Made by a program: the position numbers
Shown here: positions 56,101 to 57,489 of the stretch, piece after piece
Layout: each line of letters opens with the position of its first letter
Position numbering within the stretch: the stretch's first letter is position 1
From: Escherichia coli
Lineage (GTDB): Bacteria; Pseudomonadota; Gammaproteobacteria; Enterobacterales; Enterobacteriaceae
DNA: 64,000 bases
Reading direction: 5' to 3' (one strand)
Assembly: GCF_003334305.1 (NCBI RefSeq)
Contig: NZ_QOWS01000003.1

Positions 56101-57489
56101 ACAACTGAATCACATCGACAGCTTCCTCATGAATAAACACTTCATGCGTAAGCACGGTCCTAACGCCTATTACGGGCAGAAGTAAGCAGTGCGCCCCGGA
56201 ATTATTACCTCCTGCGGGATGTAATTGGTCTGATTCCGGGGCCTCTCCAGTTAATAAAATCATCAACATCAGGTGCTTTATGGCTATCAAAGGATTGTTT
56301 GTCAGAACGGATCCGCAGCGTCGCCGCTATGGCGTTGCGTTACTTGTGGGTGTACTTTCAGGCATTATTTCAGCATTTGTTAAATGGGGAGCGGAAGTCC
56401 CCTTGCCACCGCGCACATTTTCCGGTGGTCGCGATGAATTTAACCCGCCGTATATCTTTCTACGAGATTATTTAGGTATCGACCCAACCCAAACTGTGTA
56501 CACATTCTCGGAACATATTATCAACCCGGTGATGGTGACGCATATCATCTTCTCACTGGTTTTTGCGATAGGGTATTGTGTTGTCGCGGAAATTTTTCCG
56601 AAAGTGAAATTATGGCAGGGGATATTAGCAGGGCTTATTGTGACAGTGGCAGTCCACGGTATATTTTGCCCGGCGCTGAATTTAACGCCGCCGCTCACTC
56701 AATTGCCTTTTGACGAATATGCGTCTGAAATCCTGGGGCATATTTTCTGGTTCTGGATAATAGAGATTATGCGCCGCGACTTACGTAATCGCATTACTCA
56801 TGAGCCAGATCCGGAAGTCGCAATTCGGTGAATAACCGTATAAAAAAGCCCCCTGCGAAGGGGGCAAAGCAAACTATGGCAATGTTTCGTTGGTTATACC
56901 TGGTGCTAGCGATAAATATCCGCGCTGGCGTGCATATTGCCGTTACTCCCCGGTTCCCGCATCAGAATTACGTGGTAGTACGTTGCGCCCTGCGCATCTG
57001 TCTCTTCATTTAATGCCTGACGCGCTTCGCTTTCAGTGGCGAAATTATGATTGATATAAATCACGCCTAAGCTTTGCACATCATCCATGTTTCTGGCCTG
57101 GTGGTTATTAATTTCAATGGCTGCCCATGTATTTGCACTTAGCAAAAGCACAGCCAGAAGGGCTAAAACTCGACTGAACATAGATACCTCCTCGACGGCT
57201 GACTTTGTGTGCTCTCCTCTGTGATGATCTTCTGATTTAATTTTAATCAATGATAAAGAAGTTGATGGTGACCATTTCTGATGCAGTTGTTCGAAAAAAC
57301 ACTGTGACGGAATGTGATGAACTTCAAATCAGGGAGTTAGTTCTTTTGAGCGAAAGATGAGATTTATTTGTCGGCTGGCCTTGAGTTTAGCGGGGCATAC
57401 AAGTACTATAACGCGTCATTTTTCAGCCGACCTTTAACACGTTCCTTGCCTCCCCGGGATTCGGCTGACCCAGACAGGAGGCTGAATAA

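What the first reader, a model, noticed from the sequence alone, without database searches (positions are those of the whole stretch)
56193..56242. Long imperfect hairpin immediately downstream of ulaF
gccccggaat … attccggggc is a 10-bp inverted repeat enclosing a nested attac…gtaat repeat, 8 nt after the ulaF stop. No T-run follows, so it is not a canonical terminator. It may be an RNA stability element, a protein-binding site, or a junction scar where the adjacent YagU-like gene joins the ula operon.
Basis: seen in the sequence. Interest (0 to 1): 0.25.

Follow-up and report, generated by a model that had tools for sequence, protein, structure and literature searches.

The report
Conserved hairpin ending the ascorbate operon
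The hairpin after ulaF is real: it is this strain's copy of an old, conserved RNA stem-loop that ends the ascorbate (ula) operon in many enteric bacteria and has lost its run of U's here, so it is an ordinary operon-end structure and not a scar left by the neighbouring gene.

Summary
An 11-bp outer stem (56193-56203/56232-56242) encloses ATTAC/GTAAT and a 3-bp apical stem. It starts 7 nt after the ulaF stop and has no U-run. RNA MFE is -26.5 kcal/mol (z -4.6).

It is not a junction scar. E. coli genomes without the YagU-family gene (about 4,800 of 5,426) carry a homologous hairpin at the same place. There it is followed by CGTTTTTC, the look of an intrinsic terminator.

The same hairpin follows ulaF in Salmonella, Citrobacter, Klebsiella, Raoultella, Enterobacter, Phytobacter, Pseudocitrobacter, Superficieibacter and E. 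albertii. The outer stem co-varies: 97.7% of cells are paired, 8 of 10 pairs change on both sides, and 0 of 500 shuffles reach this. There are 24 G·U cells against 2 A·C, so selection acts on the + strand RNA.

The yagU-like gene also sits between ulaF and yjfY in four other genera, so most E. coli probably lost it. The indel begins right after the hairpin.

Best reading: this is the ula operon's terminal hairpin. In this allele it is a weakened terminator or intercistronic stem-loop that lets transcription run into the yagU-like gene.

Unexplained: a 3'-side bulge motif, AAYYGGUC, is conserved as strongly as the stem.

Interest is low.

The parts
55499..56185 (+). ulaF (L-ribulose-5-phosphate 4-epimerase), the last gene of ulaABCDEF; stop TAA at 56183-56185
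   Evidence: ORF list; RefSeq annotation of the 100% identical genome (H1)
56193..56242 (+). The conserved ula 3'-terminal RNA hairpin, which is the finding. Outer stem 56193-56203 with 56232-56242; middle stem ATTAC 56204-56208 with GTAAT 56221-56225; apical stem 56210-56212 with 56217-56219; loop UGCG
   Evidence: Covariance model hit at 56190-56251 on the + strand, 57 bits. Covariation
56226..56231 (+). 3'-side bulge UGGUCU, which carries the conserved AAYYGGUC motif (with 56223-56225); role unexplained
   Evidence: MFE structure. Column conservation 1.31 bits, equal to the stem arms
56243..56250 (+). Tail CTCTCCAG: only 2 U in 8 nt, where orthologues have a U-tract
56243..56841 (.). Segment present in 604 of 5,426 complete E. 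coli genomes and replaced by CGTTTTTC in the others (the presence/absence indel)
56280..56831 (+). YagU-family (DUF1440, PF07274) inner-membrane protein gene, 183 aa; SD AGGTG at 56271-56275
56848..56865 (-). yjfY intrinsic terminator (GCCCCCTTCGCAGGGGGC followed by T6 on the - strand); right-hand neighbour of the indel
56906..57181 (-). yjfY (DUF1471), convergent with the ula operon

Best explanation
The hairpin is this strain's allele of an old, vertically conserved RNA stem-loop at the 3' end of the ulaABCDEF (L-ascorbate utilisation) transcript. In most Enterobacteriaceae it is followed by a U-rich tail and has the anatomy of the operon's Rho-independent terminator.

In the allele linked to the YagU-family gene the U-tract is essentially gone (CUCUCCAG). 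Only 37 nt, with no convincing promoter, separate the hairpin from the yagU-like start codon. The most likely working is therefore that RNA polymerase largely reads through the hairpin, so the yagU-like gene is expressed as a seventh, distal cistron of the ula transcript. The stable stem-loop would then act as a weak attenuator and/or a 3'-exonuclease barrier that stabilises the upstream ulaA-F message after processing.

Shown here: the structure, its conservation and covariation at the RNA level, its orthology with U-tract-bearing hairpins, and its independence from the yagU indel. Inferred, not shown: read-through, co-transcription and the stabilising effect.
For: - Homologous hairpin in the empty site. 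E. coli lacking the gene has GCTGCGGAA...TTCCGCAGC + CGTTTTTC at the same distance from the ulaF stop. It differs from the window allele by two compensatory stem changes and folds at -19.2 kcal/mol, z -3.7.
- Same element after ulaF in other genera: E. albertii, Citrobacter, Superficieibacter, Pseudocitrobacter, Phytobacter; Salmonella; K. pneumoniae and C. koseri; Enterobacter, the K. oxytoca group and Raoultella.
- Constant geometry. It always starts 7-9 nt after the stop and is always 44-50 nt long.
- Covariation on a MAFFT alignment of 28 distinct sequences. 97.7% of cells are paired, 8 of 10 pairs change on both sides, 0 of 500 shuffles reach this, and slid controls give 26-55%. On 42 distinct sequences the figure is 98.2%.
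- Strand. 24 G.U cells against 2 A.C cells point to RNA of the + strand.
- Specificity. The covariance model finds one copy in the 64-kb window. In a further 0.84 Mb it finds strong matches (45 bits or more) only at ulaF-downstream sites of enterics. It detects three non-seed members at 47-54 bits.
- Tails. 3-7 U in the first 8 nt in 16 other alleles, against 2 in the window type.
- No promoter-like site between ulaF and the yagU-like ATG.
- In Pseudescherichia, ulaF and the yagU-like gene are 21 nt apart with no hairpin, which looks like an operon fusion.
Against: - No transcript data are available. Read-through versus termination at a U-poor hairpin is inferred from general knowledge of intrinsic terminators.
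- The simple terminator scan did not flag even the K-12-type hairpin. That scan only accepts loops of 3-8 nt.
- Weak -10-like hexamers (TAAAAT at 56255-56260) exist downstream of the hairpin, so an own promoter for the yagU-like gene is not excluded.
- Pseudocitrobacter keeps a strong U8 tract although a yagU-like gene follows. Loss of the U-tract is therefore not a general rule for yagU+ loci.
- A plain terminator or stabiliser role does not explain why the 3' bulge AAYYGGUC is as conserved as the stem.
Confidence: 0.7

Rival explanations
1. The hairpin is still an efficient transcription terminator in this allele, for example with factor assistance or tolerance of a poor U-tract. The yagU-like gene is then transcribed from its own weak promoter, which overlaps the hairpin's 3' arm and tail.
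For: Orthologous hairpins look like terminators. The stem is the second most stable of 18 alleles compared (-26.5 kcal/mol). -10-like hexamers lie at 56252-56260 (read). Pseudocitrobacter has a strong terminator followed by a yagU-like gene about 100 nt downstream.
Against: There are 2 U in the 8 nt after the stem. No promoter-like site passed the scan. The candidate -10 hexamers are at different places in the two E. coli yagU+ variants. Only 37 nt separate the stem from the ATG.
Confidence: 0.18
2. The hairpin is a specific recognition element for an RNA-binding protein or RNase, or the body of a stable 3'UTR-derived small RNA. The conserved bulge (AAYYGGUC) and the GGGAUGU tract would be the recognised sequence. 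Termination would be only part of its role.
For: The bulge columns carry 1.31 bits, the same as the paired arms (1.40 and 1.33), against 0.47 for the 5' interior. The asymmetric architecture (inner stem stacked on the 5' side, 6-11 nt 3' bulge) recurs in most genera. GGGAUGU resembles the CsrA SELEX consensus; this rests on my memory and was not tested.
Against: There is no Rfam family here. No paper was found that links ulaF to Hfq, CsrA or 3' ends. The GGA is base-paired in the predicted folds. Klebsiella and Enterobacter alleles lack GGGAUGU. C. koseri has GGCC and several Citrobacter alleles have GAUC in place of GGUC. The conservation could be partly shared ancestry.
Confidence: 0.1
3. 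The hairpin is a junction scar or attachment site made or used when the YagU-like gene was inserted next to the ula operon.
For: The indel starts at the first base after the hairpin. The window-type hairpin allele occurs in exactly as many genomes (604) as the gene.
Against: The hairpin is present in empty sites and in genera without the gene. No flanking direct repeats or terminal inverted repeats were found. There is one copy per genome. The gene sits in the same ulaF-yjfY slot in Salmonella, Pseudocitrobacter, Dryocola and Pseudescherichia at orthologue-like identity of 80-91%.
Confidence: 0.02
4. The hairpin is a palindromic DNA operator for a dimeric regulator.
For: It has perfect 10-bp dyad symmetry.
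Against: The stem sequence is free to change as long as pairing is kept. G.U wobble pairs (24 cells) are tolerated, while the equivalent A.C pairs on the other strand are not (2 cells). This is the signature of RNA selection, not DNA selection. The arms are 30 nt apart.
Confidence: 0.02

Closest known systems
Rho-independent (intrinsic) terminator, specifically the orthologous hairpin after ulaF in K-12-type E. coli
   Same: GC-rich stem-loop directly after the last stop codon of the operon. It has the same position, length and architecture as the K-12-type element, which is followed by CGUUUUUC.
   Different: The window allele has no U-tract (2 U in 8 nt), and a same-strand gene starts 37 nt downstream. 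14 of 50 aligned positions differ from the K-12-type allele, including two compensatory stem pairs.
Intercistronic mRNA-stabilising stem-loops (for example REP hairpins between malE and malF); comparison from general knowledge
   Same: A stable hairpin lies between two same-strand cistrons, without a U-tract. It could block 3'-5' exonucleases and uncouple the levels of upstream and downstream genes.
   Different: It is single-copy, not a member of a dispersed repeat family. The stabilising effect was not tested.
Structured 3'UTR elements bound by ProQ, Hfq or CsrA, and 3'UTR-derived sRNAs
   Same: Terminal hairpin of an mRNA with a conserved single-stranded motif.
   Different: There is no evidence of binding or of a stable RNA species. 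The conserved motif lies inside the hairpin rather than upstream of it. No curated family matches.

Membership tests
Intrinsic (Rho-independent) terminator | Stable GC-rich stem-loop in the nascent RNA | tested here: met
   -26.5 kcal/mol, z -4.6; 11-bp outer stem with 7 G-C pairs
Intrinsic (Rho-independent) terminator | U-rich tract immediately 3' of the stem | tested here: not met
   The tail CUCUCCAG has 2 U in 8 nt, the lowest of 18 alleles. Orthologues have 3-7.
Intrinsic (Rho-independent) terminator | Lies at the end of a transcription unit | tested here: inconclusive
   It lies 7 nt after the stop of the last ula gene, but a same-strand gene follows 37 nt later with no detected promoter.
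Intrinsic (Rho-independent) terminator | Transcript 3' ends map to the tail | not testable with these tools
   No transcript data; the literature searches found nothing.
Conserved ulaF-downstream hairpin of Enterobacteriaceae (family defined here, model R1) | Position 7-9 nt after the ulaF stop, length 44-50 nt, co-varying 9-13 bp outer stem | tested here: met
   (57 bits on the + strand)
Conserved ulaF-downstream hairpin of Enterobacteriaceae (family defined here, model R1) | 3'-side bulge with the AAYYGGUC motif | tested here: met
   AAUUGGUC at 56223-56230
REP/BIME-type dispersed palindromes | Many copies per genome | tested here: not met
   One place per genome in E. coli; one hit in the 64-kb window
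Mobile-element or insertion junction (att site, target-site duplication, terminal inverted repeat) | Repeat absent from the empty site and matched by a partner at the other end of the inserted segment | tested here: not met
   The hairpin is present in empty sites. No flanking direct or inverted partner was found.
Any curated Rfam family | Covariance-model match | tested here: not met
   No hit at 56186-56262, even at E <= 10
Intercistronic mRNA stabiliser | Co-transcription of the flanking cistrons and protection of the upstream RNA | not testable with these tools
   Only the positional evidence is available.

The most novel reading that the evidence does not exclude
The ulaF-downstream hairpin is more than a terminator. 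It would be an uncurated, family-wide structured 3'UTR element whose conserved single-stranded AAYYGGUC bulge (and GGGAUGU tract) is read by a protein or RNase. That factor would set ula mRNA stability or termination efficiency, or release a stable 3'UTR-derived RNA.
Probability: 0.1. Interest if true: 0.5.

Novelty: new member of a known kind. Interest (0 to 1): 0.2.

Why it matters
The stakes are modest. The result explains an odd-looking hairpin as the conserved end structure of a well-known operon. It also shows that the adjacent YagU-family gene is an old resident of this slot that most E. coli have lost, not a recent insertion.

Two small points may be useful:
- It is a clean natural example of a terminator hairpin that keeps its structure through covariation while its U-tract is present in some alleles and absent in others. 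That suits experiments on termination versus read-through.
- The bulge motif is as conserved as the stem, and a plain terminator model does not explain it.

Tried and rejected
- **Rfam scan** of 55900-57500 at E <= 10. Nothing at the hairpin; only the RpsF leader and sub-threshold noise.
- **Simple terminator scan.** It does not flag the hairpin in either allele, because its loop limit is 8 nt. This is uninformative.
- **First genome contigs pattern** ([11 protein letters not shown]). It was too general: 113 of 120 loci were AraD-type genes of gut anaerobes. These were usable only as negative controls for the model.
- **Literature.** Searches for ulaF with yjfY, terminator, Hfq, YagU or CsrA, and for ulaABCDEF with 3' end, returned nothing relevant.
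- **Mobile-element reading.** No target-site duplication or terminal repeats. GC content of the yagU-like gene (about 45-48%) is like neighbouring yjfY.
- **Integron attC reading.** No RYYYAAC/GTTRRRY cores were seen on reading the sequence.
- **Small-ORF reading** of the conserved GGGAUGU. AUG is followed at once by UAA here and by unrelated frames elsewhere, so this was rejected.
- **IHF, CRP and Chi look-alikes** in the bulge were checked by eye. They are poor matches and were dropped.
- **Extra inner pairing.** RNAalifold suggested 2 bp (columns 21-22 with 40-41) involving the GG of GGUC. This is too short and too few events to rely on.
- **Unpaired-probability script.** My script for the GGUC core mislocated the motif in several rows. 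I used the dot-bracket strings instead.

Full report
**Observation.** The window is E. coli; it is 100% identical over 1.4 kb to strain CFSAN061769. ulaF ends with TAA at 56183-56185. Seven bases later, GCCCCGGAAT (56193-56202) and ATTCCGGGGC (56233-56242) form a perfect 10-bp inverted repeat around a 30-nt interior that contains ATTAC/GTAAT.

As RNA, the 50-mer folds into three parts:
- an 11-bp outer stem;
- a 5-bp middle stem and a 3-bp apical stem with loop UGCG;
- a 6-nt bulge UGGUCU on the 3' side.

The energy is -26.5 kcal/mol against -14.0 +/- 2.7 for shuffles (z -4.6). The tail is CUCUCCAG, so there is indeed no U-run. A perfect 10-bp inverted repeat alone is not rare: about 9 occur in this window against about 3 expected. 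The case for a real element rests on comparative evidence.

**The hairpin is not made by the neighbouring gene.** All 5,426 complete E. coli genomes match the flanks. Only 604 carry the YagU-family gene (56280-56831); the rest lack about 600 bp.

Alignment of both kinds shows that gene-less genomes have, at the same distance from the ulaF stop, GCTGCGGAAATTTCCTTCCTCGGGAGATAACTGGTCTAATTCCGCAGC. This is followed by CGTTTTTC, an A-run, and the yjfY terminator. It is the same hairpin in another allele:
- 14 of 50 aligned positions differ;
- the four differences in the outer stem are two compensatory pairs (C-G to U-A and C-G to G-C);
- it folds at -19.2 kcal/mol, z -3.7.

The presence/absence segment is 56243-56841, so it begins at the first base after the hairpin. 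The window-type hairpin allele occurs in exactly 604 genomes, once per genome. It is therefore fully linked to the gene at the level of counts.

The flanks of the two haplotypes differ by only 1-4%, while the hairpin differs by about 28%. The two alleles are thus much older than the flanking sequence suggests. No direct or inverted repeats bracket the extra segment.

**Conservation beyond E. coli.** I scanned species-representative genomes for the ulaF 3' end. I scanned metagenome contigs with a more specific pattern. I also looked up contigs that encode homologues of the YagU-like protein and of UlaF.

A hairpin of 44-50 nt (51 nt in K. pneumoniae) starting 7-9 nt after the ulaF stop is present in:
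- E. albertii, Citrobacter werkmanii, Citrobacter sp. FP75, Superficieibacter, Pseudocitrobacter and Phytobacter;
- Salmonella, both with and without the yagU-like gene;
- K. pneumoniae and C. koseri;
- contigs whose UlaF is identical to proteins of Enterobacter hormaechei and E. kobei, the K. oxytoca group, K. pasteurii, Raoultella and Citrobacter braakii.

It is absent in Leclercia, K. indica, Dryocola and Pseudescherichia.

**Covariation.** On a MAFFT alignment of 28 distinct sequences, the 10 outer-stem pairs are paired in 97.7% of cells. Eight pairs show changes on both sides, and no shuffle of 500 reaches the observed values. Sliding the partner by 1-3 columns drops pairing to 26-55%. 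RNAalifold finds the same stem on its own.

A covariance model built from this alignment behaves as follows:
- one hit in the 64-kb window: 57 bits on the + strand and 14 bits on the - strand;
- in 0.84 Mb of other loci, strong matches (45-68 bits) only at the ulaF-downstream sites of enterics; one 22-bit match in a non-enteric locus looks like chance;
- three members not used to build it recovered at 47-54 bits;
- on 42 distinct sequences aligned to the model, pairing is 98.2%. That alignment is fitted to the model, so the MAFFT result is the cleaner one.

The stem tolerates 24 G.U cells but only 2 A.C cells. On the opposite strand these would swap. Selection therefore acts on RNA read from the + strand, that is, on the ula transcript. 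This argues against a DNA operator and against a - strand RNA.

**What it is.** In most genera the stem is followed by a U-rich tail: 5 U in K-12-type E. coli, E. albertii and K. pneumoniae; 6 in C. braakii and K. oxytoca-group contigs; 7-8 in Pseudocitrobacter. What follows the tail is a convergent gene (yjfY or an MFS transporter). This is the anatomy of the Rho-independent terminator of ulaABCDEF.

The window allele has the poorest tail of 18 compared (2 U in 8), and it is also the second most stable stem. Downstream there are only 37 nt before the yagU-like ATG, which has a good SD (AGGTG). No promoter-like site passes the scan. Weak -10-like hexamers lie at different places in the two E. 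coli yagU+ variants.

I therefore read the element as a terminator hairpin that has lost most of its terminating power. The yagU-like gene would be expressed by read-through as a distal cistron, and the stem-loop may still attenuate transcription or protect the upstream message from 3' exonucleases. These last steps are inferred from what is generally known of intrinsic terminators and intercistronic hairpins. No transcript data exist here.

**History of the neighbouring gene.** The order ulaF, yagU-like, yjfY(-), rpsF is also found in:
- Salmonella (protein 91% identical);
- Pseudescherichia (84%; there only 21 nt separate ulaF and the gene, with no hairpin);
- Dryocola (80%);
- Pseudocitrobacter.

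These identities are in the range expected for orthologues. The gene is therefore an old resident of this slot that most E. coli, and part of Salmonella, have lost.

In C. koseri, which lacks the gene, the spacer CGCTTTTGCCGTAAAAAAA resembles the first bases after the hairpin (CGCTT) joined to the last bases before the A-run (CCGT) of yagU+ E. coli alleles. This fits a deletion, but it is only suggestive.

**Unexplained.** The 3' half of the interior is much better conserved than the 5' half. The bulge columns (consensus AAYYGGUCNG) carry 1.31 bits, equal to the paired arms (1.40 and 1.33), against 0.47 for the 5' interior. In most alleles the motif is predicted to be unpaired, next to an inner stem stacked on the 5' side.

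A GGGAUGU tract is also conserved in the Escherichia, Salmonella and Citrobacter group, but not in Klebsiella or Enterobacter. A plain terminator does not need either feature. Recognition by a protein or RNase is possible but untested. No Rfam family covers the element, and none of the papers searched mention it.

**Verdict.** The feature is real, conserved and acts at the RNA level. It is an ordinary kind of element: an operon-terminal hairpin, here with a degenerate U-tract. It is not a junction scar. Interest is low. The conserved bulge is the only part that might repay an experiment.

Noticed in passing
window 56243-56841 (yagU-like gene 56280-56831): Presence/absence polymorphism. The YagU-family gene is in 604 of 5,426 complete E. 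coli genomes, including O104:H4. The same polymorphism exists in Salmonella (L127 has the gene, L226 does not). The two E. coli hairpin alleles differ by about 28%, while the flanks differ by 1-4%.
   Followed up: partly
window 57426-57500 (+): RpsF leader (Rfam RF02893), 89 bits, cut off by the end of the stretch scanned. This is the expected autoregulatory leader upstream of rpsF.
   Followed up: no
L163 versus L152 (Raoultella-like metagenome contigs): In alleles whose two stem arms are the identical palindrome GCTCCGGAGC, one contig has lost the whole interior and one arm. This looks like slippage or recombination between the two identical arms.
   Followed up: no
L006 (E. coli STK78-E, NZ_CP162185.1), locus 2671-3260: A deletion runs from inside ulaA to yjfY and removes ulaA(part)-ulaF and the hairpin. 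The ulaA remnant is annotated as a pseudogene that overlaps yjfY.
   Followed up: no
L128/L129 (Pseudescherichia), L015 (C. werkmanii), L223 (K. pneumoniae): The ulaF-yjfY gap is a variable slot. It holds nothing, a yagU-like gene, a minus-strand MFS transporter gene, or both. In Pseudescherichia, ulaF and the yagU-like gene are only 21 nt apart with no hairpin.
   Followed up: partly
all hairpin-bearing loci: The hairpin always begins 7-9 nt after the ulaF stop codon. That is close enough for a terminating ribosome to cover its 5' arm, so translation of ulaF might influence folding or termination. This is speculation only.
   Followed up: no
window 40973-41031: Two overlapping perfect 10-bp inverted repeats (TATCCGGCCT / CGGCCTACAT) look like a REP-type palindrome.
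   Followed up: no
window 56836-56909 (-): Sub-threshold resemblance of the yjfY terminator region to Salmonella sRNA STnc280 (28 bits against a gathering score of 80). This is probably terminator similarity only.
   Followed up: no
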